This document shows positions 8,249-37,791 of a stretch of DNA of 64,000 bases, in pieces (the first letter of the stretch is position 1; each line of letters begins with the position of its first letter). The DNA lies in assembly GCA_016208765.1 (NCBI GenBank), contig JACQXK010000001.1:192365-256364 (forward strand). The letters are read 5' to 3'. The notes below the pieces were generated by a model, which saw only the letters and a program-made list of their open reading frames with translations, searched no databases and was not told the origin of the DNA. Origin of the DNA: Candidatus Omnitrophota bacterium. Its GTDB lineage: Bacteria > Omnitrophota > Gorgyraeia > Gygaellales > Profunditerraquicolaceae. The translations under genes were made by a program, and so were the position numbers.

Positions 8249-11200
8249 TTGATAGCTATGCAAGAAGTAAATTGGAACAACTTTAAAGCAAAGTTTAACG
8301 GTAAAGAGCAAAAATCTTTCGAGTGGTTTTGCTATCTCTTGTTTTGTAAAGAATTCAAGAAGAACACCGGAATATCCAGGTATAAAAACCAAGCAGGGAT
8401 AGAAGCCGAGCCTATTGAACATAATGGTCAAATGATAGGGTTTCAGGTGAAATTCTATGAAACAAGGATTAGTGAGAATAAAGACGACATAAAAAAGTCT
8501 ATTGAAACGGCAAAGAGAAAGAATGGCAACCTTAACAAAATCATATTTTATATAAATCAGGAATTCTCAGAAAGTAGCAAAAAAGATAAGAAAGACCCCG
8601 CATACAAAATCGACATAGAAAATTATGCTAAGTTTCTTGGCGTGGAAATAGATTGGAGAAGCAGAAGCTTTTTTGACTCTTCATTTGTCTGTCAGGACAA
8701 TGCCGTAATAGCACAACACTTTTTTGACTTAGGCAAGAGCGCGATTGATTTCTTAAATGAGTTAACTCAGCATACCGAAGCTATCCTAGCGGCAATAAAT
8801 TCAAAAATAAACCTCAGAAATAATGAAATAAAAATAGATACGGCACAGAATATAAAAGTGCTACAAGATGTTCTGAATACTTCTCCCATGGCTATTTTAA
8901 GTGGAGAGGCAGGGGTAGGAAAAACCGCTCTCATCAAAGATTTTTATGACTCAAGCAAAGACAAGGCTCCTTTTTACATCTTTAAAGCTGCCGAATTCTG
9001 CATACCCAACATAAATCAACTTTTCGCCAATTACGGATCATTTACCCTGTCAGATTTCATGAGAGAACACCAAGATTTCCAAGAAAAATACATAGTAATC
9101 GATTCTGCTGAAAAGTTATCTGACATTGAATATAAGGAAGTTTTTCAGGAATTTTTATCCACCCTGCAAATTAACAAATGGAAAGTCATATTTACAACAA
9201 GACATAGCTACTTGGACGATTTAAGATTTCAGTTTATTGAGGTTTACCATGTCCGGTGTCAGCCAGTAAATATCGAAAATCTTACCTCGGCACAACTTGT
9301 CGAGATTTCAAAAAAATATGGTTTTGATCTGCCAAGGAATGACAGGTTGCTTGAGCTTTTGCGAACACCTTTCTATTTAAATGAATATCTACAAAATTAT
9401 GATAGTTTAGGAAACGCAATAAGTTTTTCTGATTTTAAAAATTTGTTGTGGAACAAGCAGATATCCAAAACTTCATATCAGAAGGATAACATACATATAA
9501 AACGGGAAAAATGCTTCCTGGAGATTGCTCATAAGAGGGCTGCTGAGGGCAGCTTTTTTGTAAAGGCTGATGGGTGTGATGATGAAGTTTTACGGGCTCT
9601 TGAGAACGATGAAATTATAAAATATAACTCCAATGCGGGCGGTTACTTTATTACACATGACATTTATGAAGAGTGGGCATTGGATAACATAATTGAAAGA
9701 ACGTTTTTGAATTCAAAAGATTACAGGGATTTCTTAAGGGGGATAGGAAGTTCTTTGCCAGTTCGTCGAGCTTTTCGGAATTGGCTCTCAGAAAAACTAT
9801 ATAATAATGGAAATGAAGTAAAAGCATTTATTGAATTTGCAATCAATGATGATACGATTGAGAGCTATTGGAAGGACGAAATCTACGTATCAATCTTGCT
9901 ATCCGATTACGCAGAGGTCTTTTTTGACATATTCAAAGACAAGCTTTTAGAAAATAACCAAACTCTCCTGGTGAAAATTATTTTTTTGCTGAGAATCGGT
10001 TGTAAAGAGATTGATGAAGACTTGCTTAATATATTTGGTATTCAAAAAACGGCGTGGAGCGCATTGAAAACTATCTTCACGAAACCAAAAGGCCGTGGAT
10101 GGAAATGCACCATCAATTTTATACATGAGCATAAAGGCGCATTGGGATTACAAAGAATGAATATAATCCTCCCCATGCTTGATGATTGGAATAACAAAAA
10201 TAAAGGGGGCGAAACTACAAAGCAAGCGAGCCAGATAGCGTTATATTATTATAACGAACTCACAAAACAACAATATTATCATATCTCTGACCGCAAAGAG
10301 GGGCAATTAATCAGAGTCATTTTGCAAGGCTCATCAGAAATTAAGGATGAGTTGAAAACTATCTTAGATGAAGTTATCTCTAACAAAGCGGTTGATTACA
10401 GGGATAGGTACTACGTTCTTATTAAGCCAATACTAACATCACTTACGGATTCCTTCGAGGTGGTTAAAGCTCTGCCGAATTATGTAATAAGATTAGCAGA
10501 TATTTTTTGGTTCCAAAATCCCAATGAATTAGATGAGGATTATAGATATTCAAGAAGAATGGACATGGAGGATTACTTTTGTATTTCATCAAGGCATAAC
10601 GACTTTTTACCAGCAAGTGCATTCCAAACACCTATATTCCAGCTTTTAAAGATATCTCCCCAAGAGACAACGGACTTTATTTTATCGTTTACCAACAAGA
10701 CGGTTGAATGCTATGCGAAATCTAAGCTTGATGGTGAAATAGAACAGGTAGACGTTTTTGTCGATAATAATAAAGCGATAAAGCAATATATAAGCAACAG
10801 GCTTTGGTGCATGTACCGTGGAACCCAAGTTTCTCCATACCTTCTTGAGTCTATACATATGGCTCTCGAAAAATGGCTTCTGGACGTCGCCAAATCAGCA
10901 TCAAAAGAGGTTATAGAAAGCCGGTGCCTGTATCTTATAAAAAACTCTAAATCTGCTTCAATAACCGCAGTTGTTTCAAGCGTGGTTTTAGCTCAACCGT
11001 CAAAGCTTTTCAATGTTGCAAAAATACTTTTCCAAACAAAACAATTCTTCCTTTACGACACGGCAAGGATGATGCTTGACCAATCACACAAAGGTCAATT
11101 ATTAGGGTTGAGAAATCTCTTTCCTCGTAACTACGATAATGAAATCTATGAAGATGAAAGAATAAAAGCTTGTGATGATAGCCACAGAAAATACGCATTA

Positions 11201-13009
11201 GAGCATTTAGCTCTTAATTATCAGTTATTCAGGACAGAAGAAGAAAGAGAGGATGAGGTTAAAGATAGACAAGAAATCATATGGGCCATATTCGATAAAT
11301 ATTATGCAGAGCTCCCAGACAAATCAACAGAAACGGAATCCGACAAGACATGGAAGCTATATTTGGCAAGAATGGATAGAAGAAAGATGAGTCCAGAAAT
11401 TGAGAAGACAGATGAAGGCACTTTCATTAAATTCAATCCCGAAATCGACGCCGATTTAAAAAAACATAGTGAAGATGCTCTGCAAGAAATTTCCGAGAAG
11501 ATGAAGTATACAGGTTTACGGCTATGGGCAGATAGCAGATTCAGAGGAGAAGAAGAGACCTACAAAAAATATCCTCAGTATGAAACCGAACCAAAACGTG
11601 TAATTACAGAAGCAAAGGAAATATTTGAAGGGCTAAAGACCACAAAAAGGGAAGAATTTTCCCTGTTTAACCGTTCAATACCCGCATATGCTTGCTCTGT
11701 TTTAATGCGTGATTTTTTTGGCAAACTTGATTCAGATGAAAAAGAATTCTGCAAAGAAGTAATTATTGGGTATGCAGCTATACCGTTAATGACAGAACAG
11801 TATATGTACCAGATATCCGATGGCACGGAAGCCGCAATTGCTCTTTTACCCAATCTTCTGGAGCATTTTCAAAAAGATAAGAAAGATATCAAAATGTTGT
11901 TGTTTAGATTGCTGCTCATCCCGTCCCGAGAAATATCAACATTTGTTGCAAGAGGCATTTTGCATAAGTTATGGAAAATCAGTTTTAATGATGCAAACTC
12001 TATGTTTCTAGGATATCTTTTGCTTTCACCCAAATATTATGCGCTTATCGATGAAATACGAGAAGAAAATTACAAAAGAAAAAATCACGGCGATTTAAGA
12101 ACACAGGTTTCTAAAGCATTTGAAGAAAAGTATAGAAAGGAACTTGAGAGGGTTAACAAGAACGGCATTTCTTATGATGAATTAGATGGCTTAGAAAAGA
12201 TAGATTTAGAAATTCTAAAATCGGCGTTTGAGTTATTGCCTTTGGAAACAACTGACAACGATCATAAGAAATTCTTGAGCGCAATCTTTCCCATTTTCGC
12301 AACGAAAATCTTACAGGATGATCGTGAGGACAGAATTGACTATACCCTAAGGCATAGATTCTTAGAAAAATTTGCATATTTTACCTTAAACCTCCCGAAA
12401 AAAGAAATAATGATATATTTGCGACCTTTTATCGATAATTTTCACAACTCAAGAGAAATGTCTGAATTCTTCCAAGAATTTATATTTGTAGAAGATAGGC
12501 TGTCCAAATATGACGAATTCTGGACAATATGGAATGCTTTTTATGAGAAGGTGGCAGATTTATGTAAGAGCAAGAGCAGTTATTATGCAAAAGAAGTCAT
12601 AAGTAGCTATCTCTTAGCAGGGATACCCTGGAATGAAAAAGCAAAAGAATGGCATACGCTAAAAGAACGAGAAAAGATATTCTATAAAAAGGTAGCTGAG
12701 GAAATGGGGCAGCACCCAGCGGTGTTGTATTCCATTTCCAAGGTTCTAAACGGCATCGGAAGCAATTTTATAGAAGACGGATTAACCTGGATAAGCTATA
12801 TCTTAGAAAACAACAAACAGCTAAGCTCGGAAGAATTAGAAACAAATACCATTTTTTACATAGAGACCTTTCTTCGACGATATATTCTAAATAATCGTCT
12901 ACATATTAGGAGGTCACTATTGATTAAGAAGCAACTTATCGTTGTTTTAAATTTCTTGATAGGAAGAGGTTCGATCGTAGGGTATTTATTACGAGATGAT
13001 ATTTTATAA
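8249..13009 (+). CDS. Giant STAND-like P-loop NTPase (1586 aa) with an N-terminal Mrr-like PD-(D/E)xK nuclease-fold domain and a long helical C-terminus; resembles the Avs (antiviral STAND) architecture.
   Basis: N-terminus FEWFCYLLFCKEF…GIEAEP…QMIGFQVKFYE follows the Mrr_cat pattern (FE.L…GID…I.QCK.Y). Walker A is [12 protein letters not shown] near aa 220 and Walker B is KYIVIDSAEKL near aa 280. More than 1200 aa of non-repetitive, helix-rich sequence follows. Confidence 0.6.
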   Translation: MIAMQEVNWNNFKAKFNGKEQKSFEWFCYLLFCKEFKKNTGISRYKNQAGIEAEPIEHNGQMIGFQVKFYETRISENKDDIKKSIETAKRKNGNLNKIIFYINQEFSESSKKDKKDPAYKIDIENYAKFLGVEIDWRSRSFFDSSFVCQDNAVIAQHFFDLGKSAIDFLNELTQHTEAILAAINSKINLRNNEIKIDTAQNIKVLQDVLNTSPMAILSGEAGVGKTALIKDFYDSSKDKAPFYIFKAAEFCIPNINQLFANYGSFTLSDFMREHQDFQEKYIVIDSAEKLSDIEYKEVFQEFLSTLQINKWKVIFTTRHSYLDDLRFQFIEVYHVRCQPVNIENLTSAQLVEISKKYGFDLPRNDRLLELLRTPFYLNEYLQNYDSLGNAISFSDFKNLLWNKQISKTSYQKDNIHIKREKCFLEIAHKRAAEGSFFVKADGCDDEVLRALENDEIIKYNSNAGGYFITHDIYEEWALDNIIERTFLNSKDYRDFLRGIGSSLPVRRAFRNWLSEKLYNNGNEVKAFIEFAINDDTIESYWKDEIYVSILLSDYAEVFFDIFKDKLLENNQTLLVKIIFLLRIGCKEIDEDLLNIFGIQKTAWSALKTIFTKPKGRGWKCTINFIHEHKGALGLQRMNIILPMLDDWNNKNKGGETTKQASQIALYYYNELTKQQYYHISDRKEGQLIRVILQGSSEIKDELKTILDEVISNKAVDYRDRYYVLIKPILTSLTDSFEVVKALPNYVIRLADIFWFQNPNELDEDYRYSRRMDMEDYFCISSRHNDFLPASAFQTPIFQLLKISPQETTDFILSFTNKTVECYAKSKLDGEIEQVDVFVDNNKAIKQYISNRLWCMYRGTQVSPYLLESIHMALEKWLLDVAKSASKEVIESRCLYLIKNSKSASITAVVSSVVLAQPSKLFNVAKILFQTKQFFLYDTARMMLDQSHKGQLLGLRNLFPRNYDNEIYEDERIKACDDSHRKYALEHLALNYQLFRTEEEREDEVKDRQEIIWAIFDKYYAELPDKSTETESDKTWKLYLARMDRRKMSPEIEKTDEGTFIKFNPEIDADLKKHSEDALQEISEKMKYTGLRLWADSRFRGEEETYKKYPQYETEPKRVITEAKEIFEGLKTTKREEFSLFNRSIPAYACSVLMRDFFGKLDSDEKEFCKEVIIGYAAIPLMTEQYMYQISDGTEAAIALLPNLLEHFQKDKKDIKMLLFRLLLIPSREISTFVARGILHKLWKISFNDANSMFLGYLLLSPKYYALIDEIREENYKRKNHGDLRTQVSKAFEEKYRKELERVNKNGISYDELDGLEKIDLEILKSAFELLPLETTDNDHKKFLSAIFPIFATKILQDDREDRIDYTLRHRFLEKFAYFTLNLPKKEIMIYLRPFIDNFHNSREMSEFFQEFIFVEDRLSKYDEFWTIWNAFYEKVADLCKSKSSYYAKEVISSYLLAGIPWNEKAKEWHTLKEREKIFYKKVAEEMGQHPAVLYSISKVLNGIGSNFIEDGLTWISYILENNKQLSSEELETNTIFYIETFLRRYILNNRLHIRRSLLIKKQLIVVLNFLIGRGSIVGYLLRDDIL

Positions 13010-14500: not shown

Positions 14501-15724
14501 ATGAAACAAGAAGTTACATCAAAAAAAGTGTTCATTCGCACGCTGGGCTGTCAAATGAACGTCCGGGATTCGGAGGTAATTGGAGGGTTGCTTGCGAGAG
14601 CAGGGTATGAGATTACCGACGATGAACAGCAGGCGGATATTGTGATTTTTAATACCTGTTCTGTGCGTCAGATGGCTGAAGATAGGGTATGGAGCGCGGT
14701 GGGAAATGCTGTAAATAGAGAAAAGCATAGGGACAGTCCCCAAAAAGCGGGGACAGTCCCTATAATTGGTATTACAGGCTGTATGGCAAATAATTACCGG
14801 GAGGCAATTTTTGAGAAAGCGCCGGCTGTTGATTTTGTGGTCGGCACTGCGGATATTGGAAAGCTACCGGAAATCATAAAAGAAATCCAAAAACATAAAG
14901 GCAGCCTCAATGAAAAGAAGATTTATGAAACAGACGCAGAATTTCGCGAGGATGAAATTTATCACACTGGATTCAGGCTTGATAAAGAACATGCGTTTGT
15001 GGTAATCTCGGAGGGATGTGAGAATTTTTGTTCTTATTGTGTGGTGCCTTATGTGCGGGGAAAGTTGCGCTCGCGTGATCCTGAGGATATTTTAAAAGAA
15101 ATAAAAGCAGATGTTGATGCCGGGATTTCTAAGATTACTCTTTTGGGCCAGAATGTGAATGCGTATCATTGGGTAGATAAAAACAGGGACAGTCCCCAAA
15201 AACCGGGGACAGTCCCTGTTTTTACTTTTGATTTTGTAAAGCTCCTGACAATGGTTAATAGAATAAGCGGTTTAAAAGAGTTTACTTTTGTTACCTCACA
15301 CCCCAAGGATACATCAATAGAATTATTTAAGGCAATGGCTGAGTTGGATAAATTAAGAAAATACATGCATCTTCCGGTGCAGTCTGGTTCGGATAGGATC
15401 TTAAAAATGATGAATCGCAGGTATACCAGGGAAAATTATTTAAATTTAGCAAAGAGTTATCGTGAGATTGTCAGGGGTGGTGAGCTTACTACTGATATTA
15501 TTGTGGGTTTTCCCGGTGAGACAGAAAAAGATTTTCAGGATACCTTTGATTTGGTAAAAGAAGCGGAGTTTAATGCTGGTTTTATTTTTAAATATTCACC
15601 TCGGCCGCATACTGAGGCTTTAAAATTGCCTGATGATGTGTCAAGAGAGGAAAAAGAAAGGCGCCACGCCTTAATTTTAGAACTGCAGAAGAAAATATCA
15701 AAGAAGCTAAGAAAGAAAATATGA
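14501..15724 (+). CDS. miaB: tRNA-2-methylthio-N6-dimethylallyladenosine synthase (radical SAM methylthiotransferase). It carries two in-frame 11-aa palindromic-element insertions.
   Basis: VFIRTLGCQMN MTTase N-domain, CxxxCxxC radical-SAM cluster (CENFCSYCVVP) and a C-terminal TRAM region. Insertions 'RDSPQKAGTVP' and 'RDSPQKPGTVP' correspond to the DNA elements at 14729-14761 and 15185-15217. Confidence 0.9.
   Translation: MKQEVTSKKVFIRTLGCQMNVRDSEVIGGLLARAGYEITDDEQQADIVIFNTCSVRQMAEDRVWSAVGNAVNREKHRDSPQKAGTVPIIGITGCMANNYREAIFEKAPAVDFVVGTADIGKLPEIIKEIQKHKGSLNEKKIYETDAEFREDEIYHTGFRLDKEHAFVVISEGCENFCSYCVVPYVRGKLRSRDPEDILKEIKADVDAGISKITLLGQNVNAYHWVDKNRDSPQKPGTVPVFTFDFVKLLTMVNRISGLKEFTFVTSHPKDTSIELFKAMAELDKLRKYMHLPVQSGSDRILKMMNRRYTRENYLNLAKSYREIVRGGELTTDIIVGFPGETEKDFQDTFDLVKEAEFNAGFIFKYSPRPHTEALKLPDDVSREEKERRHALILELQKKISKKLRKKI
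14729..14761. repeat. 33-bp palindromic element AGGGACAGTCCCC-AAAAAGC-GGGGACAGTCCCT, inserted in-frame in miaB.
   Basis: Two copies of the near-palindrome GGGACAGTCCC separated by 7 nt. The same element recurs at 15185-15217 and, in reverse orientation, at 32625-32653 and 32828-32856. Confidence 0.85.
15185..15217. repeat. Second copy of the 33-bp palindromic element (AGGGACAGTCCCC-AAAAACC-GGGGACAGTCCCT), in-frame in miaB.
   Basis: Differs from the first copy by one spacer nucleotide. It is flanked by AAAAC/GTTTT, which extends the palindrome. Confidence 0.85.
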
Positions 15725-29310: not shown

Positions 29311-30588
29311 TTGCCTATTTTCCTGAAAAATACCTTCCGGTTAATTTTTCTTCTCGTTATATTCTTAGCCTTGCCAGTTTTTTTTCTTCAAAAGAAACTC
29401 CTTTCTTCAGGCCCATTCTTCTTGTTTTACCTGATTAATCTTACGTTTATTATCATTTCGGCAAACAGGGTTTCTAAAAGAAAATTTGCAGTTCAATACG
29501 AAAGCCAGAAGATTGAAGAAGGCCTGAATGTTTTGTCCGCGGATAATCTTAAAGAAGATAAACACAATATCAACCTGCAGCAAAAAACAATCCGCTATAA
29601 CAGTCTCAAAGAAATAATTGAAGAATTAAATCAAAGGCTTGATGTTGATTTTGTCGCCGGTAAGCTCTCGGGAATTGTATTTTCTTTGCTTGCCGCAAAT
29701 AAAGGGGCCTGTCTGTTGTATTTAGTGGATAACCAGACGCAAAGGCTCTCTTTGTTTAAAACAAAAAAAGAAAATTCCGGCATGGTGGTTAAGGCAAAAG
29801 AAGGCGATATGTTTGATTTGTGGGTACTCAGGCATACGAGCCCATTATTGGTTGAGGATGCAAAAAAAGATTTTCGTTTTGATTTAGATAAGTTTAAAAA
29901 GGATGATTCAAGGCAGGTTGAATCTTTAATCAGCTCTCCTTTGGTAAGCGGGCAGAAACTGATTGGGATCTTGCGCCTTGATTCTCCTGTTAAAAATGCA
30001 TTTAGCCAGGATGATCTGCGTTTCTTGGCTACGGTTTGTGAAATAGGAGCAGTGGCCCTGGAAAACAGCCAGTTGTTCCAGAAAACGAGGGATTTGGCGA
30101 TCCACGACGGGTTGACCTCGCTTTATACCAAGGGATATTTTCTGGAGCGGTTAAAAGAGGAATGCCGCAGGGCGTTGCGTCACGGCTCAGAGTTGAGCCT
30201 GTTAATGCTTGATATTGATTTCTTTAAAAATTATAACGATAAGTTTGGGCATAGCGCAGGAGATATTGTTTTAAAGAATTTAACGCGCTTATTGAATGAA
30301 TCCTCTAAGGGTGAAGATGCGGTTTTAGGCCGTTTTGGAGGAGAGGAATTTTGTGTGATCTTAAAAGGAAAAGACAAAAAAGATGCGCTTATTTTTGCGG
30401 ATGGATTGCGCCAGAAGATTGAAGGCGAGTCCGTAACCTTGCGCAGGGAAAGAACAAGCATTACTGTATCAATAGGCGTTGCAAGTTTTCCTCCGGATAC
30501 AACCGATGAAAATGACCTGGTGCGTAAGGCAGATGCGGCAATGTATGAGGCAAAGAAAAAAGGAAGAAATCAGGTATGCTGTATTTAA
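29311..30588 (+). CDS. Membrane-anchored GAF-GGDEF diguanylate cyclase.
   Basis: N-terminal TM helices, a GAF-like middle region and a GGDEF domain with RFGGEEF. Confidence 0.8.
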   Translation: MPIFLKNTFRLIFLLVIFLALPVFFLQKKLLSSGPFFLFYLINLTFIIISANRVSKRKFAVQYESQKIEEGLNVLSADNLKEDKHNINLQQKTIRYNSLKEIIEELNQRLDVDFVAGKLSGIVFSLLAANKGACLLYLVDNQTQRLSLFKTKKENSGMVVKAKEGDMFDLWVLRHTSPLLVEDAKKDFRFDLDKFKKDDSRQVESLISSPLVSGQKLIGILRLDSPVKNAFSQDDLRFLATVCEIGAVALENSQLFQKTRDLAIHDGLTSLYTKGYFLERLKEECRRALRHGSELSLLMLDIDFFKNYNDKFGHSAGDIVLKNLTRLLNESSKGEDAVLGRFGGEEFCVILKGKDKKDALIFADGLRQKIEGESVTLRRERTSITVSIGVASFPPDTTDENDLVRKADAAMYEAKKKGRNQVCCI

Positions 30589-31559
30589 CCGCACTGTTTT
30601 TACTGACTTTAATTCTGCAGGTTTATGTTTTAAGATTGCTGCGCATTAATTTTAATAAGGCAGATACAAAATTGAAACAATTAACAAGAAAGCACGCCAA
30701 TTTATTTAAGAAAAATGCTGCGCTTAAATCCGAGAACGCAGTTTTAGGAAAAAGTACTGAAGAAATTATCCAGATATATGAAGTTACCAAAAATATCTGC
30801 AAGAGCCTTGATGAAGAACAGGTCTTTAATAGTTTCCGTGAAGATGTAAGCCGGTTCATTAAATTGGATGATTGCAAATTCCTGAGTGCTGGAGAAGATA
30901 CTTCTCGGTATGATAAAGAAAATGTTTTGCCGATAAATATTGACGATAGTTTGGTTGGGTATCTTGCTGCTATTAATTTGCGCGCTGACGAACGCGAAGA
31001 ATTTTTTATTCTTGGAGGACAGTTCAAGCTTGGAATTGAAAGGGCGATTCTTTACAAAAAAGTCCAGGAGCTTGCGATTACCGACGGACTTACACAACTT
31101 TTGAGCCGCAGGTATTTCTTGGAAAAGTTTGCTGAAGAAATAGAGCGTTCACAGAAATTTGGGCTAAGTTTTGCTTTTTTGATGATTGATTTGGATAATT
31201 TTAAAAGCTTTAATGACCGTTACGGGCATTTAGTGGGAGATGCATTGTTAAGAGAAGTGGCGAATGGTATTAAAGAAAATATAAGGCAGATAGATTTTAT
31301 CTGTCGTTATGGCGGTGAAGAAATTGCGCTGGTGTTGGCTGAAACGAACCAGGAACATGCCCGGCTGGCAGCTGAGCGTATACGCAGGTCAATTGAATCA
31401 AAAAATATTAACATTTATGATGAAGTGCTTAAGATTACAATCAGTATAGGTATGTCTAATTTCCCGGATGGAAAGGCAGACGCAAAGTCGCTTATTGAAA
31501 AAGCAGATAAGGCTTTGTATAAGGCAAAGCAATCCGGCCGCAACAAAGTTTGTTTCTAA
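30576..31559 (+). CDS. GGDEF-domain protein (variant GGEEI active-site motif) with an N-terminal TM/coiled-coil and a GAF-like region.
   Basis: RYGGEEIAL in the GGDEF domain. It overlaps the upstream GGDEF gene by 13 nt. Confidence 0.75.
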   Translation: MLYLTALFLLTLILQVYVLRLLRINFNKADTKLKQLTRKHANLFKKNAALKSENAVLGKSTEEIIQIYEVTKNICKSLDEEQVFNSFREDVSRFIKLDDCKFLSAGEDTSRYDKENVLPINIDDSLVGYLAAINLRADEREEFFILGGQFKLGIERAILYKKVQELAITDGLTQLLSRRYFLEKFAEEIERSQKFGLSFAFLMIDLDNFKSFNDRYGHLVGDALLREVANGIKENIRQIDFICRYGGEEIALVLAETNQEHARLAAERIRRSIESKNINIYDEVLKITISIGMSNFPDGKADAKSLIEKADKALYKAKQSGRNKVCF

Positions 31560-31639: not shown

Positions 31640-31722
31640 AGGGACGGTTCTGATTTGCGCTTAAAAGTGTCCCTTACTATTTAAAGCAGGGACAGTTTTA
31701 ACCGTGTTTCAGAACCGTCCCT
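31640..31722. repeat. 83-bp nested palindrome in the GGGAC family: AGGGACGGTTCTGA…AAAAGTGTCCCT-N13-AGGGACAGTTTT…TCAGAACCGTCCCT.
   Basis: Outer 14-bp perfect inverted repeat and inner roughly 12-bp inverted repeat. It lies 25 bp upstream of the giant gene start. Confidence 0.8.
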
Positions 31723-31746
31723 AACTTACACACTTTTCACTACCTT

Positions 31747-34700
31747 ATGACTAAAAGACTCTCTAAACTAATTGCCTTACTTTTAAGCTTTCTACTGCTA
31801 ATAGAGCAAGCAGGCTTTGCAGCTGGTGGTGCCATAGACCTATCAAGCCAATTCTCTAAGCTTGCCTCAGGCATATCTACTACTCTATCATCTGCTACTA
31901 CAGCTACCTTTCGTCCCATACACCTAAGATACCTGGAGTATCTACCTAAAGATAACAGCTTTAAGCTGCTCTTAGATAAAGGTAGCGTAGATACGTCATT
32001 GCGAGGCGCTTCACAGAGTAGGATAACGAAGCAATCTCAAAACCAGATTGCTTCGTCGCTCGTTTCGCTCGCTCCTCGCAATGACGATTTACACACCTTA
32101 CACCCCATATCGCAAGCTGAACTACAAGACCTCCAATCCACCACCCAAGACCTAATGAACTACTTCTACATAGGCCTCACACTACCTAATGATTCCTTCT
32201 GGGTTAACCTAAGACCTGCCCCGTTGATGACCGAAGGTCAATCTACGGGGACTGACTCACCCAACAACATCATAGACTCCTACCTATCTAAAACAGATAT
32301 AGGCAGAATTCTTCTTGAAGCTGATGTACAGCTAAAGAAAGACACCTCAAGCTACACTAACCCAGCTACTCCTATAGGAAAGCAATACTGGAATAAGCTC
32401 TACAAGAAAGCCTCTGATCTCTTTGGAACAGACCAGATTACTATCCCTACCCTAACAAGACCATGGATAGTTCCAGGAGAGATAATCATAAGAGAAAGTC
32501 TGTCACCTGTTGCCAGTGTTGGACAGGAGACAGGTGACAGGAGACAGGCGACACATCCCTCTGCCTACATCTACAAAGCTACCCTTAAAGTAATGCTTGA
32601 AGAAGACTACTTGAAGGGACTGTCCCCGAAGGGGACTGTCCCTGGTTCAACAGACTACTCCTTCACTGATCCGCGCCTTAAAGAACTCAACTCCTACTCT
32701 ACAGAACTAATCAAAGAACTAATCATCCCCAAACTGACTAAAGAGGTAAACTCCTCTAAAAGATACTCTAAGCTAAGACAGGTATACTACTCTCTAATAC
32801 TTGCTCAATGGTTTAAGTCAAGGCAGAAGGGACTGTCCCCGAAGGGAACTGTCCCTGATTTGATTGACTCTAAAAATCTCTCTAACCTAACCTCTAAAAC
32901 TACTTGGGATAAAGCTACCTACTTCAACCAATACCAACAATCCTTCACTAAAGGAGAATACAATACCAAGGAAACAGTCTATACACCTTCTGGACAGGTG
33001 ATCAGGAGTTATATGAGTGGAGGGATTACCTTGATGCAAGGGAGTTTTCCTATTCAGCAAGGGGCTACTTTTGAAAGCCAAGCCGGAAGCCCGATTAAAG
33101 TAGTCCCTGCCAACAGCCCTATTCCAGAAACTCTAAAAAATATCGCAGTAGAAATTAGTTGTTCGGTTTTAAATTCAGACAATTCTACAGTACAGTTAAT
33201 TCCAGAAGTATCATCTGAGAAAATGTATACGCCAGCCAGTTCTTCAGTAGTAAATCACGAAACTAGCGTAGGGCAACTTGTGCTTTTAGAAAAAAGAGAA
33301 TTCCGCTGGCTTCCGGAAGATATTACTAAAGTTGAACAACTGATTCCTGAATTGAAGAAATTTAGCCGAGGCGCAGAGGGTGTTGTGAAGCAGGAGGTAG
33401 CAATCTCACTTTTAGCGGGGCTGATTAGAAAGGAAAACTCAAAATCAATCGCAGCTTTTGAGGATTTAGCTGGACAGATAAAAGAATTTATTGCTCCGAA
33501 ACAAAGGCTTAGCTTAAAGTATGTATCGCTGAAGATTATAAATGCCGCAGCGCAAAATGGAAATCCGGTGGCATTAAAGCTAATCAAGGAATCAACAAGT
33601 GATTTAATAAAAACAATTATTGCGATTGAGCAAAAAGGAGATGTTTATGAAGGGCTTCAAGATATGGTGTTGGATGAGATGCTGGCGTTGTTGATTAGAG
33701 GCGAAAATAACGCATTATTAGAAATAGCAACAGCTTTATCCCAAGGATTAAGGGAAAATCTTCCATCAAGCCAGGATATAAATGAGATCAAGGGAATTCG
33801 TCAGCTCTTTAAACAAGCTCTCAATATGTCAGGTCTTAAGGTAATATTTAAGCTCCGTGAGATCGCAGCAATCCGCGCAACCAATAGTCTCATTCAGGCA
33901 TTGGAGCTTGATACGGAAGACATAATTTACGGTTACTGCGAAGAGCTAAATAAGAAGATGGTGCAGGAAGCAATTGAAAAAGGAGAGCTTCCTCCCGGCT
34001 ATTCTACTAAAAAATATACAGATTCGGCGGATCAGCATCAAAAGGATATCGTAGTAATATTTAATGATAATCAGTCTTTAGGCAGATCAGCCGACAAATT
34101 ACAATTACCTTATTACATTTTTAAATACGGGCTGCCAGAACCATTACCGCAGGAAATTGTAGCTAGAATGCGGCAAGAGATGAATATAGGAAAGCGCAAA
34201 GTGATTGTCGCCGGGTCAGTTGATCGGCAAGAAATAGGCGTTTTAATGGCTGCTTATAATAGTTTATACCGCAATCTCCCTGTAGAACAGCGTCCGTTAT
34301 TAGTTTTGGCTCCTCGGGATATAATCGATTTAGATGATGTGGATTTAAGTCAGCCAGATGCGCCTCTTGTGCTTAAGCAGGGAGAATTGTTAAAATCTTA
34401 TGCCTTAGCCGATGTTTGTATTGTAGGTAGCGATCGTAATATTTTAGAGCCATCAAGCCAGAGAAAATTGGTGTTGTATTTCTCGGGTTATTGGCGCAGC
34501 AATCAGCAAGCGAAAGATATGCTAGTTTCTTCGGGCGGAGCAATAGAGTTTAATCAAGATAATCTCTCTCTAGCGGTAAATAATCCGCAGATAACGCAAG
34601 AATTGGGAGAGAAAGGTTTTAAGATAGTGCAAGAATTCAAAAATAAGATTATTCCACAAACAACGGATATCGCGGCAATCTTCGGATTGTCTTTGTTGAT

Positions 34701-37700
34701 TAAGAAAGTAGCACAGCAACGCGCCGCCTCATCGGTAGTGGAGAAAAAAACAGAAACGTCATCTGGCTTTCTCCAAGGGTCTTCGTCTTCGGCTGTCGCA
34801 ATAAGTGATTTCTACGCAGAACAGTTAAAAACAAAATTTTATATCTCACCGCACCAGCAGGAAGCAATAGATATTTTGGAAAAATACAAAGCGTATTTTA
34901 GCAGTGGCATGAATATTCAGCAGAAGGATGGAGATTGCTTTAGCGGTGGAGTTGTCAATTACGCTCAAGCTTTGATAGGAATTATAGCGGGTTTTATTGT
35001 TGTCAGCCAAGATAAAAAAAGCTTAGTTTTTCTTCAAGCACAAGGCCTTGTTAATCTTCGTGGCATGGTTAACGCTTTAGAGTTTTTGGAAAAAAACAAA
35101 ACTTCCTATGAAAAAAGGGGAATGATTAGGGATGAGGTTGGGGCAATAGGCATAGGCTTTTCATATCAAGAGGCAAAAGCTGGGATAATATCCGGGGTTG
35201 TGATTGTCTCGCTTAAAGGGGATGAATTATTGGTCAAGCAGGGTAAAAACAGGTCAGATGTCCCTTCTTATGTTGTTGTTGATATTTGGGGCCGGCCGAT
35301 GGTTGTTACTATCGGGTTTGCCGATAAATTAATGTCTGCTGCTGTGGCAGGGCGTAGGGCTAAAATTGAAAAAAATCCATCAGAGCGAGAAAGGCTTGCC
35401 TTGGAACAGTCTCAATATCTAAGCGCAGTAATTGATGGTGTTTCTATTGCTCACGTTGGAGATTATTTTGAGGCGAATGGAAATCTTTTCATAGTTAATA
35501 AGGTATATATAGAAACTGATGAAAATGGCAGGTTAGTATCTTTTAATTATTTTGGTGAACAAGCCCCTCTTCAGCAAGGACAATTGAGTTTTGCGTCTCG
35601 GCGGTTGCAATTAAATCATTATTATCAGCCATTATCTCAAAAAGAGGTAGAGGATTTTCTTAAAGCCAGGGAGAATGAAAAACAACAAGCGGATAGAAGG
35701 AATTTACAGGTTAATGTGGAGTCATTAGAAAAGAAAGTTAATAATGGGCTTAACTGGGGAACAGAAGGCAACGTAGCCAAACTCTTGTCTGAATGTGAAA
35801 AAGCAGGGTTTGAAGATTTGCTTGGGCGTATGAGAAATGTCTGCGCAGGGTTTGTTGATATTCGGCGCATCTATGATACATACGGTAAAGATATTAATAA
35901 AATATCTGTTTTATTAGAGCAACTTGCTTTTAGTCGGGCCGAGAAATTAGTTGAAGTTTTATCTCTACGTTCTCAACTGGAAGAAATTATAAAACAAATT
36001 GAGCAAGATAATGGGAATAAAGCAGCTTTAGAATTCTGGGACAAGGAAGCGAAACATTTGCTTGGAAAAGTTAATAAGTTGTTGGGCCGTTTAGAGCAGG
36101 ATGCTTCTTGGCGTAGAAGGCAAGTTGCGCGCAGGCAAGTTCCGATGAAGCGTTTGGGTTCTCTGTATCCCGGAGAAAGAAGGCAGGAAGCAAAAGAGCT
36201 TTTTTGCGATTCGGAAAATCCCGTAACTATTATTATTGGTAGTGGAACGATATTGGAAATAGGTAAAGATAGTTTCGGTTTTTTTGTGGTTCGTGCTAAT
36301 GAGGTAGACAGAGAATTTGGGAGAAGGGTATATATCAGTGAGCAAGGCATAAAGATAGGCAGTGACAGGCAAACGGGTTATTTGCGTATAGGGGATGTAG
36401 TTTCTACTGCTCATAAGGATTCCTTGGTTTCTAGGGAACATCTGGAGATTAGTGTTATTGACCAGCAGACTATTAAATTAGCTGATAAAGGTTCTCTTAA
36501 TGGCACAAGTTATAGAGTTTTTGAGGGGGAGCTGGTTAATCCTGTTTATGAACGTTCGGAGGTTGAAGAATTAGCCTTGGCTGTGGCGGCAAGGTTAGGC
36601 GGCGGGGGATTGTACTTTGATTCAGACAAAAGGAAAATAGGGGAAAACAGGGTTTTTGAAGCCCGCGACAGTCTTGAGGTGATTTTTGGACAGCGGGAAG
36701 GAAATAAAGAAGAAGCATCAGAAAATCTTTTTAAATTCTTCCGCAGATATGGGATTATTTTTATCTATGAAAATAATTTTGCTTTATTAGGCAAAGTTGA
36801 GAGCGTTATTCCTGTTTCCTACCGGTTTTTCAAAAGGGTATTATTGATAAAGCCGTGGTATCAAAAGGGAATGGAAAATATATTGGGATTTTATTCAGGG
36901 CGAATCCAATCACTAACCGAAGGATACGCAATCTTAGGCCAGCGCGGAGAACAGGAAACATCAGAAGAAAATCGTCTTACTGGAGTTCACGAGGCTAATC
37001 ATGGGTTTGATTCAAGCGAAATAATTGAACTTAACAGAATTGGCAAAAGAGTTGCGGTTGATGCCACAATGTTTGAATATACAGCTTATTTGGCGATGTT
37101 GTTGGTAGAGGATGAAAAGGCTGCTTATCATGCCTATATGGAAATGTATGAAGTTTATCAGCAGTATAATTTTAAAGGCAACTATCCAAATCCGAATATT
37201 GCCGCACAATGCAGAATTATCGGCGAGTACCAAGAACAAGGTCATCACGGAGACTCTTTAACTAATGAAACTATTAGGAAGATGGCACAACAATTAAGAA
37301 ATAACTATTATAATGAATTTTTTGGTTTTGTTCCTTCTTATCCTGATGTTTGGCAGGCATTTTCAAAAGCTCAAAACGCCTCCTCGGCTGTGACAGGCGA
37401 CTCCTCGACTAAGCTCGGAGTAAATAGTCGACTGGAGACTGGTGACACTAAAGGCGGTATTGACTTCCGTAGCCTCCCCATCGTCACCCAAGCTGTCTCT
37501 AACTTAGGCTTAACTACTATGAATCAGGAGCTAAGGAATAGATTAATGAATTTTAATCTAAGCTCTGAGCTAAATGAAATAGAGAAACTCACTAATGCAG
37601 GTATTACCCCCTCAACCCAAAGAATTAAAGAATACATTCAAGCAAGCTCCATCTCTATTAATTCCCCAGAAGATACCCAGAAACTACTCTCCTGTATTGC

Positions 37701-37791
37701 AGATATCCTCAGAAAACAGGAAGAAGAATGCTGCCCTACAGATCCTACCTTAAAAGATATTCTTGTAGTATTGGAATCAGGGATAAGTTAA
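31747..37791 (+). CDS. Giant secreted multidomain protein (2014 aa) with a GT30/Kdo-transferase-like region and a C-terminal-proximal FHA domain. It also carries two in-frame palindromic-element insertions.
   Basis: Signal peptide MTKRLSKLIALLLSFLLLIEQAGFA. Region …RKVIVAGSVDRQEIGVLMAAYN…LLVLAPRD…ADVCIVGSDRNILEPSSQ…SSGGAIEF resembles the KdtA C-terminal fold. FHA-like region …YLRIGD…SREHLEI…DKGSLNGT. The insertion peptides are GLSPKGTVP, twice. Confidence 0.6.
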   Translation: MTKRLSKLIALLLSFLLLIEQAGFAAGGAIDLSSQFSKLASGISTTLSSATTATFRPIHLRYLEYLPKDNSFKLLLDKGSVDTSLRGASQSRITKQSQNQIASSLVSLAPRNDDLHTLHPISQAELQDLQSTTQDLMNYFYIGLTLPNDSFWVNLRPAPLMTEGQSTGTDSPNNIIDSYLSKTDIGRILLEADVQLKKDTSSYTNPATPIGKQYWNKLYKKASDLFGTDQITIPTLTRPWIVPGEIIIRESLSPVASVGQETGDRRQATHPSAYIYKATLKVMLEEDYLKGLSPKGTVPGSTDYSFTDPRLKELNSYSTELIKELIIPKLTKEVNSSKRYSKLRQVYYSLILAQWFKSRQKGLSPKGTVPDLIDSKNLSNLTSKTTWDKATYFNQYQQSFTKGEYNTKETVYTPSGQVIRSYMSGGITLMQGSFPIQQGATFESQAGSPIKVVPANSPIPETLKNIAVEISCSVLNSDNSTVQLIPEVSSEKMYTPASSSVVNHETSVGQLVLLEKREFRWLPEDITKVEQLIPELKKFSRGAEGVVKQEVAISLLAGLIRKENSKSIAAFEDLAGQIKEFIAPKQRLSLKYVSLKIINAAAQNGNPVALKLIKESTSDLIKTIIAIEQKGDVYEGLQDMVLDEMLALLIRGENNALLEIATALSQGLRENLPSSQDINEIKGIRQLFKQALNMSGLKVIFKLREIAAIRATNSLIQALELDTEDIIYGYCEELNKKMVQEAIEKGELPPGYSTKKYTDSADQHQKDIVVIFNDNQSLGRSADKLQLPYYIFKYGLPEPLPQEIVARMRQEMNIGKRKVIVAGSVDRQEIGVLMAAYNSLYRNLPVEQRPLLVLAPRDIIDLDDVDLSQPDAPLVLKQGELLKSYALADVCIVGSDRNILEPSSQRKLVLYFSGYWRSNQQAKDMLVSSGGAIEFNQDNLSLAVNNPQITQELGEKGFKIVQEFKNKIIPQTTDIAAIFGLSLLIKKVAQQRAASSVVEKKTETSSGFLQGSSSSAVAISDFYAEQLKTKFYISPHQQEAIDILEKYKAYFSSGMNIQQKDGDCFSGGVVNYAQALIGIIAGFIVVSQDKKSLVFLQAQGLVNLRGMVNALEFLEKNKTSYEKRGMIRDEVGAIGIGFSYQEAKAGIISGVVIVSLKGDELLVKQGKNRSDVPSYVVVDIWGRPMVVTIGFADKLMSAAVAGRRAKIEKNPSERERLALEQSQYLSAVIDGVSIAHVGDYFEANGNLFIVNKVYIETDENGRLVSFNYFGEQAPLQQGQLSFASRRLQLNHYYQPLSQKEVEDFLKARENEKQQADRRNLQVNVESLEKKVNNGLNWGTEGNVAKLLSECEKAGFEDLLGRMRNVCAGFVDIRRIYDTYGKDINKISVLLEQLAFSRAEKLVEVLSLRSQLEEIIKQIEQDNGNKAALEFWDKEAKHLLGKVNKLLGRLEQDASWRRRQVARRQVPMKRLGSLYPGERRQEAKELFCDSENPVTIIIGSGTILEIGKDSFGFFVVRANEVDREFGRRVYISEQGIKIGSDRQTGYLRIGDVVSTAHKDSLVSREHLEISVIDQQTIKLADKGSLNGTSYRVFEGELVNPVYERSEVEELALAVAARLGGGGLYFDSDKRKIGENRVFEARDSLEVIFGQREGNKEEASENLFKFFRRYGIIFIYENNFALLGKVESVIPVSYRFFKRVLLIKPWYQKGMENILGFYSGRIQSLTEGYAILGQRGEQETSEENRLTGVHEANHGFDSSEIIELNRIGKRVAVDATMFEYTAYLAMLLVEDEKAAYHAYMEMYEVYQQYNFKGNYPNPNIAAQCRIIGEYQEQGHHGDSLTNETIRKMAQQLRNNYYNEFFGFVPSYPDVWQAFSKAQNASSAVTGDSSTKLGVNSRLETGDTKGGIDFRSLPIVTQAVSNLGLTTMNQELRNRLMNFNLSSELNEIEKLTNAGITPSTQRIKEYIQASSISINSPEDTQKLLSCIADILRKQEEECCPTDPTLKDILVVLESGIS
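32625..32653. repeat. Palindromic element in reverse orientation (AGGGACTGTCCCC-GAA-GGGGACTGTCCCT), in-frame in the giant gene.
   Basis: Reverse complement of the miaB element core. It encodes GLSPKGTVP. Confidence 0.85.
32828..32856. repeat. Second reverse-orientation palindromic element (AGGGACTGTCCCC-GAAG-GGAACTGTCCCT), in-frame in the giant gene.
   Basis: Same core with one substitution. It encodes GLSPKGTVP. Confidence 0.85.

What the first reader, a model, noticed from the sequence alone, without database searches (positions are those of the whole stretch)
31747..37791. 2014-aa secreted giant protein combining a Kdo-transferase-like (GT30) region with an FHA domain
After a signal peptide and more than 500 aa of low-complexity Ser/Thr-rich sequence, a segment (…VIVAGSVDRQEIGVLMAAYN…LLVLAPRD…ADVCIVGSDRNILEPSSQ…GGAIEF…) resembles the C-terminal half of KdtA/WaaA-type glycosyltransferases. 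About 600 aa later there is an FHA phosphopeptide-binding domain (GD…SREHLEI…DKGSLNGT). This combination on an exported multi-kb protein is unusual. The gene sits just upstream of lptD and a UDP-sugar cluster, so it may be an envelope-associated scaffold or enzyme.
Basis: inference. Interest (0 to 1): 0.55.

Follow-up and report, generated by a model that had tools for sequence, protein, structure and literature searches.

The report
Omnitrophota frame-and-payload exported protein family
The 2014-residue gene is real, and its Kdo-transferase-like and FHA-like pieces are just the variable payload of one member of a large, undescribed Omnitrophota protein family in which a conserved signal peptide plus N-terminal domain and a conserved C-terminal domain frame an almost freely exchangeable middle.

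Summary
The ORF 31747..37791 (+, 2014 aa) is real. The GT30 resemblance holds. A profile of aa ~700-990 and its relatives hits WaaA structures (2xci, E 1.3e-13) and more than 100 true Kdo transferases. hhalign gives 99.4%. Only the C-terminal CMP-binding Rossmann half is present; the catalytic N-domain has no counterpart. The FHA call is weaker: a partial signature, above the Pfam cutoff only in homologues, lacking the phosphate-binding Arg, and not confirmed by fold search.

The more important result concerns the termini. A Sec-type signal peptide plus an N-cap of about 400 aa, and a C-cap of about 115 aa, are shared at 45-60% identity with at least 761 proteins and 387 genomic loci. Nearly all named sources are Omnitrophota, with several paralogues per genome. 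The middles are unrelated to one another: only 4% of pairs share any similarity. They carry methyltransferase, GNAT, phosphatase, radical-SAM, J-domain, kinase and other domains. A 609-aa member has the caps and no payload.

The parts
31747..37791 (+). Whole gene, 2014 codons plus stop. It is identical to NCBI MAG protein HY761_01220 (P0001), whose annotated start at aa 137 is too short.
   Evidence: Of the 119 related proteins, 57 align from their own residue 1 and most of the rest from within their first 10 residues, which supports the 31747 start.
31747..31821 (+). Sec-type signal peptide (aa 1-25), with a predicted signal-peptidase I site after GFA.
   Evidence: Read directly from the sequence. 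The pattern is conserved across the family.
31822..33042 (+). N-cap (aa 26-~432), the conserved N-terminal frame domain. Signature motifs are FRPxHLRY, FWVNLRP, IPTLTRPWIVP, LRQVYYSLI and RSYxSGG.
   Evidence: Identity is 45-55% to all 119 top hits, always at their own N-terminus. The AF2 core has pLDDT 75-92. There is no family or PDB match.
32614..32646 (+). In-frame palindromic DNA element, copy 1 (GGGACTGTCCC twice), translated KGLSPKGTVPG. It falls in a loop that is a gap in the family alignment.
32827..32859 (+). In-frame palindromic DNA element, copy 2, translated KGLSPKGTVPD.
33043..34122 (+). Start of the payload (aa 433-792): a poorly conserved linker followed by a helix-rich region. 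It is not a GT-B N-domain.
   Evidence: No Pfam hit. hhalign finds no match to WaaA columns 1-229. Two relatives of module A carry HEAT repeats.
34123..34626 (+). Module A core (aa 793-960): a WaaA/GT30-derived C-terminal Rossmann half. CMP-contact residues are kept: P-R in LAPRD (aa 854-858), G and L in QGELL (aa 878-882), N and E in RNILEP (aa 897-902).
   Evidence: The residue roles come from PMC6286764. The wider module, aa 702-990, recurs in about 85 proteins.
34717..35691 (+). Orphan payload region (aa 991-1315). It has no relative in any search and contains one hydrophobic stretch at aa 1067-1087.
35692..36126 (+). Module B, helical part (aa 1316-1460): a long helical bundle.
36148..36516 (+). 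Module B, beta-sandwich with the FHA-like signature (aa ~1468-1590). RIGD lies at aa 1547-1550, SREH at 1562-1565 and SLNGT at 1583-1587.
   Evidence: Pfam FHA gives 18.9 bits here, and 24.2 and 31.2 bits in homologues. PDB profile hits are all FHA domains but weak (best E 0.0013). The model has 11 strands. Foldseek found no FHA.
36664..37362 (+). Module B, C-terminal part (aa 1640-1872). It has a conserved HExxH (HEANH, aa 1748-1752) and a downstream EYTAYLAM (aa 1777-1784). This may be a metallopeptidase-like domain.
   Evidence: The motif is conserved in P0121 and P0122 but not in P0206. No family or PDB hit. AF2 confidence is below 50, so the fold is unknown.
37444..37788 (+). C-cap (aa ~1900-2014): the conserved helical C-terminal frame domain, beginning at GGIDFR (aa 1903-1908).
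   Evidence: Identity is 40-60% to all 119 top hits, always within 0-38 residues of their C-terminus. AF2 predicts six helices at pLDDT 73-91.
31640..31723 (.). 14-nt inverted repeat (AGGGACGGTTCTGA ... TCAGAACCGTCCCT) in the 5' intergenic region. It is related to the intragenic palindromic element.

Best explanation
The gene encodes one member of a large paralogous protein family found almost exclusively in Omnitrophota. The family is built as frame plus payload.

The frame has three parts: a Sec signal peptide, an N-terminal domain of about 400 aa (N-cap), and a helical C-terminal domain of about 115 aa (C-cap). The frame is held constant. The 550-2950 aa between the caps is exchanged almost freely.

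In this member the payload runs in this order:
- a helix-rich stretch;
- the C-terminal, CMP-binding Rossmann half of a WaaA-type (GT30) glycosyltransferase, without the catalytic acceptor half;
- an orphan region of about 325 aa;
- a helical bundle;
- a divergent, partial FHA-like beta-sandwich that lacks the phosphate-binding Arg;
- a conserved HExxH domain.

Shown:
- the architecture and the family;
- the GT30-half homology;
- the absence of any known family or solved fold for the caps.

Inferred:
- The protein is exported through Sec and the signal is cleaved after GFA.
- The two caps fold together into one unit. That unit would be the common handle for routing, anchoring or delivery after export, so any payload placed between them gets the same fate.
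- The GT30 half works as a cytidine-nucleotide or nucleotide-sugar binding module, not as a Kdo transferase.
- The payload acts outside the producer's cytoplasm. Payloads in sister proteins need ATP, SAM, Fe-S clusters or Hsp70, so the most plausible site of action is on or in a partner (host or prey) cell.
For: Family and architecture:
- All 119 listed relatives share only aa 1-~430 (at their own N-terminus) and aa ~1900-2014 (at their own C-terminus).
- Only 4% of 7140 payload pairs share any similarity, and the query's payload shares none with the 119.
- 387 loci were found in species-representative genomes. Almost all of the 80 best, the only ones listed, are labelled Omnitrophota (a few 'uncultured Planctomycetales' or 'bacterium'). 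Several genomes have at least 5 paralogues.
- A 609-aa member is caps plus a linker only. Complete members range from 609 to 2416 aa in the loci.

The frame as one unit:
- A cap-only chimera modelled with a 40-sequence alignment gave pTM 0.68 even though 26% of residues are disordered inserts. I read this as the two caps being placed confidently relative to each other. This is an inference.

Export:
- The signal-peptide pattern is conserved across the family.

GT30 half:
- establish the homology.
- Six of seven CMP-contact residues are kept.

FHA-like:
-.

Payload modules are shuffled within Omnitrophota:
-.

Sister payloads look catalytically intact:
- GNH[DE] in 8 of 8 metallophosphatases, CxxxCxxC in the radical-SAM member, and HPD in 4 of 4 J-domains.

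Literature context:
- The same domain repertoire (methyltransferase, HATPase, GNAT, HAD, HD, GT1, radical SAM, ROK) is reported in signal-peptide-bearing Omnitrophota proteins of at least 10 kaa (10.64898/2026.06.07.730766). It is also listed for Dockerin-type giants (10.1101/2023.11.21.568195).
Against: - There is no experimental evidence of export, cleavage or localisation.
- Cytoplasm-type payloads (radical SAM, J-domain, SAM methyltransferases) sit oddly with Sec export.
- No conserved secretion or accessory gene lies next to family members.
- The cap model is only moderately confident (mean pLDDT 67.9), and no coordinates or PAE were available to verify N-cap/C-cap contact.
- The nucleotide-binding role of the GT30 half rests on residue conservation only.
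- The FHA fold was not recovered by Foldseek (best E 0.043).
- The HExxH domain could not be modelled.
- A divergent N-cap subfamily uses a different C-terminal module, so the frame is not strictly invariant.
Confidence: 0.6

Rival explanations
1. The protein is an envelope-associated enzyme or scaffold of LPS and cell-envelope biogenesis. It would be a GT30-type Kdo or sugar transferase, regulated or scaffolded by an FHA domain, working with the neighbouring lptD-like and UDP-sugar genes.
For: - There is genuine homology to WaaA, with the CMP-binding residues kept.
- A signal peptide is present.
- UDP-glucose/GDP-mannose dehydrogenases and epimerases lie downstream.
- The 820-aa neighbour has a weak LptC/OstA-like hit.
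Against: - The acceptor-binding and catalytic N-domain of WaaA is absent. NCBIfam equivalog scores are 15.7 bits against a cutoff of 438.
- WaaA acts on the cytoplasmic face of the inner membrane (established knowledge), whereas this protein carries an export signal.
- The module is a mobile payload piece found in many unrelated architectures.
- The genes immediately downstream are a ROK kinase and a transaldolase.
- Family members have no conserved neighbourhood.
Confidence: 0.07
2. The protein is not exported. The hydrophobic N-terminus would be a membrane tether or a buried helix. The caps would assemble family members at the cytoplasmic side of the membrane or into an intracellular structure, forming a scaffold that co-localises many cytoplasmic enzymes and regulators.
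For: - Payloads across the family are classic cytoplasmic domains with intact catalytic motifs that need ATP, SAM, acetyl-CoA, Fe-S clusters or DnaK.
- Two GGDEF genes and housekeeping genes flank the gene.
- No secretion genes are nearby.
Against: - The N-terminus fits a cleavable Sec signal in every respect: a basic n-region, an h-region of only 12-14 residues (too short for a stable membrane helix), small residues at -3 and -1, and a conserved Gln at +1.
- The positive-inside rule would place the bulk of the protein outside even if the signal were uncleaved.
- The 2026 preprint reports that about 94% of very long Omnitrophota proteins are predicted to carry a signal peptide and/or membrane helices.
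Confidence: 0.2
3. The caps are self-assembling structural units. They would form a surface coat or lattice, comparable to an S-layer or to the coat of 'coated coccus' Velamenicoccus. The payloads would be displayed on that lattice, with no delivery into other cells.
For: - Strong conservation of the caps across paralogues with unrelated payloads fits a shared assembly interface.
- A payload-free minimal member exists.
- The literature proposes an extracellular coat for Omnitrophota giant proteins (PMC10066038).
Against: - Displayed enzymes that need cytoplasmic cofactors would be inactive outside a cell.
- No oligomerisation data exist.
Confidence: 0.1

Closest known systems
WaaA/KdtA, lipid IVA Kdo transferase (CAZy GT30; PDB 2xci/2xcu, 4bfc)
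   Same: Residues ~793-960 are homologous to the C-terminal Rossmann domain of WaaA, from the NLKYD linker to the last helices. hhalign gives 99.4% probability and E 7e-22. The CMP contacts P211, R212, G248, L250, N273 and E276 are conserved as LAPRD, QGELL and RNILEP.
   Different: - There is no N-terminal acceptor and catalytic domain (PF04413; G30, E31, E98, K162).
- The GGSLxxxGGHN loop is shortened to GSDRN, and F247 is replaced by Gln.
- The module is embedded in a 2014-aa protein that carries a signal peptide.
- It scores far below the NCBIfam equivalog cutoffs.
- It is a derived half-domain, not a GT30 enzyme.
FHA phosphothreonine-binding domain (Pfam PF00498)
   Same: The central signature is present (SRxH, then S-x-NGT), inside a predicted beta-sandwich. 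The homologous stretch of two relatives passes the Pfam gathering score. PDB profile hits are exclusively FHA domains.
   Different: - Only model positions ~3-45 of 67 are matched.
- The Gly-Arg that binds the phosphate is Gly-Asp here, and Gly-Gly, Gly-Glu or Asn-Gly in relatives.
- The window protein itself is under the cutoff.
- Fold searches did not return FHA structures.
MARTX toxins and other polymorphic, modular secreted toxins or effectors
   Same: The logic is the same: conserved terminal regions flank a central region in which unrelated enzymatic modules are swapped between paralogues and strains. This statement about MARTX comes from my own knowledge.
   Different: - There is no sequence or fold similarity to MARTX repeats, CPD, Rhs, or the N-terminal trafficking domains of polymorphic toxins.
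- This family has a Sec signal rather than a type I signal.
- No immunity or secretion genes are adjacent.
- Toxicity and delivery are untested.
Omnitrophota giant 'multi-enzyme' proteins (>=10-147 kaa), Archaeovorin and Dockerin-type giants
   Same: Same phylum and the same unusual mixture of cytoplasm-type domains (methyltransferase, HATPase, GNAT, HAD, HD, GT1, radical SAM, ROK, HEAT/TPR). For the >=10-kaa proteins that mixture sits behind predicted signal peptides. Function is equally unknown. Module A also occurs in proteins of 4.5-5.1 kaa, and one of these (P0142) has a divergent N-cap.
   Different: - Members here are 0.6-3.5 kaa.
- They are defined by a shared N-cap and C-cap that those papers do not describe, at least in the text I could search.
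- Whether the giants carry the same caps was not tested.
Type I-secreted RTX adhesins of the LapA type, autotransporters and T9SS cargo
   Same: All are large exported proteins in which a conserved terminal element handles secretion or retention and the rest is variable. This is an analogy from my own knowledge.
   Different: - The C-cap is helical, not a beta-barrel or an Ig-like CTD.
- There are no RTX repeats.
- A Sec signal is present, unlike type I substrates.
- No homology was detected.

Membership tests
Omnitrophota cap-payload-cap family (defined here) | N-cap domain at the extreme N-terminus, directly after a signal peptide | tested here: met
   Residues 1-~430 align at 45-55% identity to the N-termini of all 119 listed relatives.
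Omnitrophota cap-payload-cap family (defined here) | C-cap domain starting with GGIDFR at the extreme C-terminus | tested here: met
   Residues ~1900-2014 align at 40-60% identity to the C-termini of all 119 relatives. The window protein lacks the 10-25 aa tail that follows the cap in most members.
Omnitrophota cap-payload-cap family (defined here) | Variable, unrelated payload between the caps | tested here: met
   The query's payload shares nothing with the 119 relatives. Only 4% of all pairs share any similarity.
GT30 Kdo transferase (WaaA/KdtA) | C-terminal GT-B Rossmann domain that binds CMP-Kdo | tested here: met
   The profile hits 2xci at E 1.3e-13. hhalign gives 99.4% over WaaA columns 230-434. 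Six of seven CMP contacts are conserved.
GT30 Kdo transferase (WaaA/KdtA) | N-terminal GT-B domain (PF04413) with the lipid IVA pocket and catalytic G30/E31, E98 and K162 | tested here: not met
   hhalign leaves WaaA columns 1-229 unaligned. There is no PF04413 hit in the window protein. The upstream sequence is helix-rich and has no Pfam hit.
GT30 Kdo transferase (WaaA/KdtA) | Score above the curated NCBIfam equivalog cutoff | tested here: not met
   15.7 bits against 438, and 12.6 bits against 524.
GT30 Kdo transferase (WaaA/KdtA) | Kdo transfer to lipid IVA | not testable with these tools
   This needs an enzyme assay or complementation of a waaA mutant.
FHA domain (PF00498) | Pfam score at or above the gathering threshold | tested here: inconclusive
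   The window protein scores 18.9 bits, below 20.7. The homologous stretch scores 24.2 bits in P0121 and 31.2 bits in P0206. Only about 2/3 of the model is matched in each case.
FHA domain (PF00498) | Phosphothreonine-binding residues: Arg of the G-R motif, Ser and His of S-x-x-H, and Asn of N-G | tested here: not met
   The motifs read RIGD (Arg replaced by Asp), SREH (kept) and SLNGT (kept). Relatives also lack the Arg. The residue roles come from my own knowledge of FHA domains.
FHA domain (PF00498) | Eleven-stranded beta-sandwich fold similar to solved FHA domains | tested here: inconclusive
MARTX / polymorphic toxin systems | Homology to the known trafficking or repeat regions, an autoprocessing CPD, or adjacent immunity and secretion genes | tested here: not met
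   No Pfam, NCBIfam or PADLOC hits. No fold match. No conserved neighbours in 80 loci.
HExxH zinc metallopeptidases | HExxH plus a third ligand, in a recognisable metallopeptidase fold or family | tested here: inconclusive
   HEANH and a Glu about 25 residues downstream are conserved in 3 of 4 sequences. No family or PDB hit was found. The model is unreliable in this region.

The most novel reading that the evidence does not exclude
The caps would be a previously unrecognised, self-contained delivery frame. It would let these ultra-small, probably host-dependent bacteria send almost any cytoplasmic-type enzyme or binding module across their own membrane and onto or into a partner cell. That would amount to a new polymorphic effector platform with hundreds of payloads. 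It would also be a small, tractable version of the unexplained Omnitrophota giant proteins. The conserved SGG motif at the end of the N-cap and the GGID motif at the start of the C-terminal module could be processing sites that release the payload.
Probability: 0.25. Interest if true: 0.85.

Novelty: new variant of a known kind. Interest (0 to 1): 0.68.

Why it matters
Omnitrophota are widespread, uncultured nanobacteria thought to depend on other cells. They are known for enormous proteins that carry signal peptides and are packed with cytoplasm-type enzyme domains, and nobody knows what these do.

This analysis shows that many of their mid-sized proteins (0.6-3.5 kaa) share one conserved bipartite frame around a freely exchanged payload. 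The frame has no known family or solved fold. Several useful things follow:
- There is now a defined domain pair to annotate. Hundreds of proteins are currently named only after their payload, such as 'methyltransferase', 'GNAT' or 'metallophosphoesterase'.
- The 609-aa minimal member is small enough for structural and export experiments.
- The phylum's odd proteome can be stated as a testable hypothesis: a common export or delivery handle.
- Automatic annotation is likely to mislabel such proteins from fragments like the GT30 half.

Tried and rejected
- The first structure job used pasted cap chimeras of the homologues (A1).
- An 80-sequence full-length alignment crashed. It was replaced by a 40-sequence alignment (A2).
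- A single 1200-aa payload alignment (A6) misaligned module B onto module A and was discarded.
- The afdb50 fold library was unavailable.
- Single-sequence PDB searches of the N-terminal 500 aa and of the remainder gave nothing. Cap profiles A1 and A7 gave no significant PDB hit for the caps. The only hint was a penton protein at E 0.011, which I treat as chance.
- The word-index search with the payload (aa 500-1900) found only the protein itself. The exhaustive phmmer search was needed to find modules A and B.
- PHROGs and PADLOC gave no hits.
- The viral contig scan found only 2 loci among 2.9 million contigs, so this is not a viral family.
- Clustering of neighbouring genes in 80 loci found only housekeeping genes (glmS, rsmI, gyrA) and no conserved partner.
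- The other long ORF in the window (8249..13009) was tested as a possible paralogue and is not one.
- A covariation test of N-cap/C-cap contact was considered and dropped. Only 14 sequences remain at under 62% identity.
- Literature searches found no description of the caps.

Full report
**1. The observation**

The window holds an uninterrupted ATG-started ORF at 31747..37791 (+) of 2014 codons. It is 100% identical to an NCBI MAG protein, HY761_01220 of a Candidatus Omnitrophica bacterium. That record is annotated from Met137 (P0001, 1878 aa). Relatives align from at or near their own N-terminus (57 of 119 from residue 1) to residue 1 of this ORF, so the longer start is the right one.

Single-sequence family scans gave only borderline hits:
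- Pfam FHA at aa 1552-1588: E 0.0021, 18.9 bits, gathering score 20.7.
- Two NCBIfam Kdo-transferase equivalog models at aa 805-863 and 878-966: E 0.04 and 0.004, 15.7 bits against a cutoff of 438.

**2. The unexpected main result: a conserved frame around a variable middle**

A homologue search returned 761 proteins at E<=0.001. Almost all named hits are Omnitrophota, and they range from 1100 to 3500 aa.

Local BLAST showed one pattern in all 119 listed relatives:
- They share aa 1-~430 of the query, located at their own N-terminus, at 45-55% identity.
- They share aa ~1900-2014, ending 0-38 residues from their own C-terminus, at 40-60% identity.
- They share nothing in between.

Their middles carry very different precomputed Pfam domains. 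Examples are SAM methyltransferases, GNAT, metallophosphatase with or without FHA, HEAT and TPR repeats, DnaJ, radical SAM, PEP-utilisers, HPr and HPr kinase, protein kinases, NUDIX, HD, GGDEF, M23/M48/M20 peptidases, transglutaminase, GT1/GT9, and glutamate dehydrogenase. Only 4% of 7140 payload pairs share any similarity at E<1e-6. The query's payload shares none with the 119.

A scan of one genome per species, seeded with two invariant cap peptides, found 387 loci. The 80 best, the only ones listed, are essentially all in Omnitrophota MAGs; a few are labelled 'uncultured Planctomycetales' or 'bacterium'. Several genomes have at least 5 copies within the 80 best loci alone. Viral contigs hold only 2 loci.

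One locus encodes a 609-aa member made of N-cap, a linker of about 140 aa, and C-cap, with no payload. Complete members in the fetched loci range from 609 to 2416 aa.

Neighbouring genes are housekeeping (glmS, rsmI, gyrA), and no conserved accessory gene appears. N-caps are somewhat more alike within a genome (median 64%) than between genomes (57%). For 17 of 27 paralogues the nearest N-cap is in the same genome, so part of the expansion is lineage-specific.

**3. The caps**

N-termini across the family show a basic n-region, a hydrophobic stretch of 12-14 residues, and a conserved QQxGFA|QVA. This is a textbook cleavable Sec signal. That reading comes from the sequence and from the established signal-peptidase I rules.

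It has dozens of invariant residues in motifs such as FRPxHLRY, FWVNLRP, IPTLTRPWIVP, LRQVYYSLI and RSYxSGG. The truly variable stretches are short inserts.

The C-cap begins at GGIDFRxLPIV and is helical.

An AlphaFold2 model was built of a cap-only construct (aa 1-450 joined to aa 1895-2014) with a 40-sequence alignment. It gave mean pLDDT 67.9 and pTM 0.68. The conserved blocks scored 75-92 and the inserts scored below 50. About a quarter of the chain is disordered, so a pTM of 0.68 suggests the two caps are placed as one body. That is my inference. No coordinates or PAE were returned.

- Pfam or NCBIfam;
- PHROGs or PADLOC;
- PDB sequence profiles, including a more diverse profile.

A more distant N-cap subfamily, at about 30% identity, was seen in 19 of the 91 payload relatives. 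It ends in a different C-terminal module that starts with the same GGID motif: GGIDLT...GFxPVIIxIQP.

**4. The payload of this member**

A word-index search with aa 500-1900 found only the protein itself. An exhaustive phmmer search of 1.84 billion representatives with aa 700-1899 found two recurring modules.

*Module A (aa ~702-990)* occurs in about 85 proteins, including ones of 4.5-5.1 kaa. Every one that carries a source name is from Omnitrophota.
- A profile of module A hits the WaaA structures 2xci (E 1.3e-13) and 4bfc (E 4.5e-10).
- It hits more than 100 annotated Kdo transferases.
- hhalign against a WaaA alignment gives 99.4% probability and E 7e-22. It covers only WaaA columns 230-434 of 466, which is the stretch from the NLKYD linker through the C-terminal Rossmann domain (aa 793-960 here).

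The published CMP contacts of Aquifex WaaA are P211, R212, F247, G248, L250, N273 and E276 (PMC6286764). The window protein keeps six of the seven, in LAPRD, QGELL and RNILEP. The catalytic N-domain residues G30, E31, E98 and K162 have no counterpart. The preceding sequence is helix-rich and has no family hit.

The GT30 homology is therefore real, but this is a half enzyme. I infer a nucleotide or nucleotide-sugar binding module, not a Kdo transferase.

*Module B (aa 1316-1872)* is shared with P0121 (E 2e-108), P0122 and, more distantly, P0206. P0121 and P0122 end in the standard C-cap. P0206 carries the divergent N-cap and its alternative C-terminal module.
- The FHA Pfam model passes its cutoff in the homologous stretch of P0121 (24.2 bits) and P0206 (31.2 bits).
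- The only PDB profile hits are FHA domains, and they are weak (3gqs, E 0.0013).
- Only positions ~3-45 of 67 are matched.
- The phosphate-binding Arg of the G-R motif is Asp here, and Gly or Glu in relatives. SRxH and NG are kept.
- The AF2 model, built from a 4-sequence alignment, shows a helical bundle followed by an 11-strand sandwich at pLDDT 60-90.

I rate the FHA assignment as plausible but divergent and probably non-canonical.

Downstream, HEANH (aa 1748-1752) and a Glu about 25 residues later are conserved in three of four sequences. This hints at a metallopeptidase-like domain. No family, PDB or reliable model supports it.

Residues 991-1315 have no relative anywhere.

**5. How it most likely works**

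Shown:
- the frame-plus-payload architecture;
- the size of the family and its near-restriction to Omnitrophota among named sources;
- the existence of a payload-free member;
- the GT30-half homology.

Inferred:
- Sec export and cleavage after GFA;
- the caps acting together as a common handle for what happens after export (routing, anchoring or delivery);
- the payload supplying specificity.

A real tension remains. Sister payloads have intact catalytic motifs and need cytoplasmic cofactors or partners. GNH[DE] is present in 8 of 8 metallophosphatases, CxxxCxxC in the radical-SAM member, and HPD in 4 of 4 J-domains. Such payloads make sense outside the producer only if they reach another cell's cytoplasm, or if the proteins are not exported at all.

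The literature reports the same paradox for Omnitrophota proteins of at least 10 kaa, which combine signal peptides with multi-enzyme content (10.64898/2026.06.07.730766). It also proposes host-dependent or predatory lifestyles for the phylum (PMC10066038; 10.1101/2023.11.21.568195). None of these texts mentions the shared caps.

**6. Comparison and novelty**

- The protein is not a member of GT30, because a defining feature was tested and not met.
- It is at best a divergent relative of FHA.
- By logic it resembles MARTX-type and polymorphic modular exported proteins, with conserved ends and a swappable middle. It shares no homology, secretion signal type or gene context with them.
- Its closest biological relatives are the unexplained Omnitrophota giant proteins.

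I file it as a new variant of a known kind, namely modular polymorphic exported proteins, built on a domain pair that has no described family or solved fold.

**7. Context claims**

The gene is preceded by two GGDEF genes. It is followed by a ROK kinase, a transaldolase/FSA, an 820-aa ORF with only a sub-threshold LptC/OstA-like hit, two UDP-glucose/GDP-mannose dehydrogenase genes and two epimerases. This context is not conserved among family members.

Noticed in passing
window 14730-14760, 15186-15216, 32616-32642, 32829-32855; also L002-L080 (24 of 80 loci): A short palindromic DNA element is inserted in frame inside coding genes. It consists of GGGAC(A/T)GTCCC twice, 16-20 nt apart. Two copies lie in the MiaB-like radical-SAM gene (translated RDSPQK(A/P)GTVP). 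Two lie in the giant gene's N-cap (translated KGLSPKGTVP), at loop positions that are gaps in the family alignment. The window has 8 matches against 0.35 expected. The same element and the same peptides recur in N-caps of many other Omnitrophota genomes. This resembles the Rickettsia palindromic elements that insert into ORFs (my own knowledge).
   Followed up: partly
window 31640-31723: A perfect 14-nt inverted repeat (AGGGACGGTTCTGA ... TCAGAACCGTCCCT, arms 56 nt apart) lies in the 5' intergenic region just upstream of the giant gene's start codon. It is related in sequence to the intragenic palindrome. It could be a mobile-element remnant or a regulatory hairpin.
   Followed up: no
window 8249-13009 (+): A second long ORF (1586 aa, TTG start) has only a sub-threshold AAA_16/P-loop hit. 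It looks like a STAND-type NTPase. It is not a paralogue of the cap family. A gene with RhuM and Fic/DOC domains lies just upstream at 5674-6672, so this may be a small defence or toxin island.
   Followed up: partly
Its only hit is a weak LptC/OstA-like match (E 0.057, 13.5 bits against a cutoff of 21). The lptD label is unverified.
   Followed up: partly
window 29311-31559 (+): Two consecutive GGDEF diguanylate cyclase genes, one of them with a GAF domain, lie directly upstream of the giant gene. The arrangement is not conserved near other family members.
   Followed up: no
P0123, P0124, P0134, P0140 and others (relatives found): A divergent N-cap subfamily (about 30% identity) ends in a different conserved C-terminal module: GGIDLTxxxMxLQ...DPAxLxxLxNAxGFxPVIIxIQP...FLG. 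It begins with the same GGID motif as the standard C-cap. In these proteins the GT30-half module often sits directly before that C-terminal module.
   Followed up: partly
window 37744-37791: The window protein stops right after ...VVLESGIS. It lacks the 10-25 aa tail (consensus S..ELK..F.G) that follows the C-cap in most relatives. No remnant of the tail is visible in the downstream DNA.
   Followed up: yes
L009 52-12300; L075 17-7830: Family members sometimes occur in tandem. In L009, a 2102-aa ORF that ends in a C-cap is followed 21 nt later by a 1972-aa ORF that starts with an N-cap. In L075, a 1995-aa ORF overlaps by 4 nt the start of the 609-aa payload-free member.
   Followed up: partly
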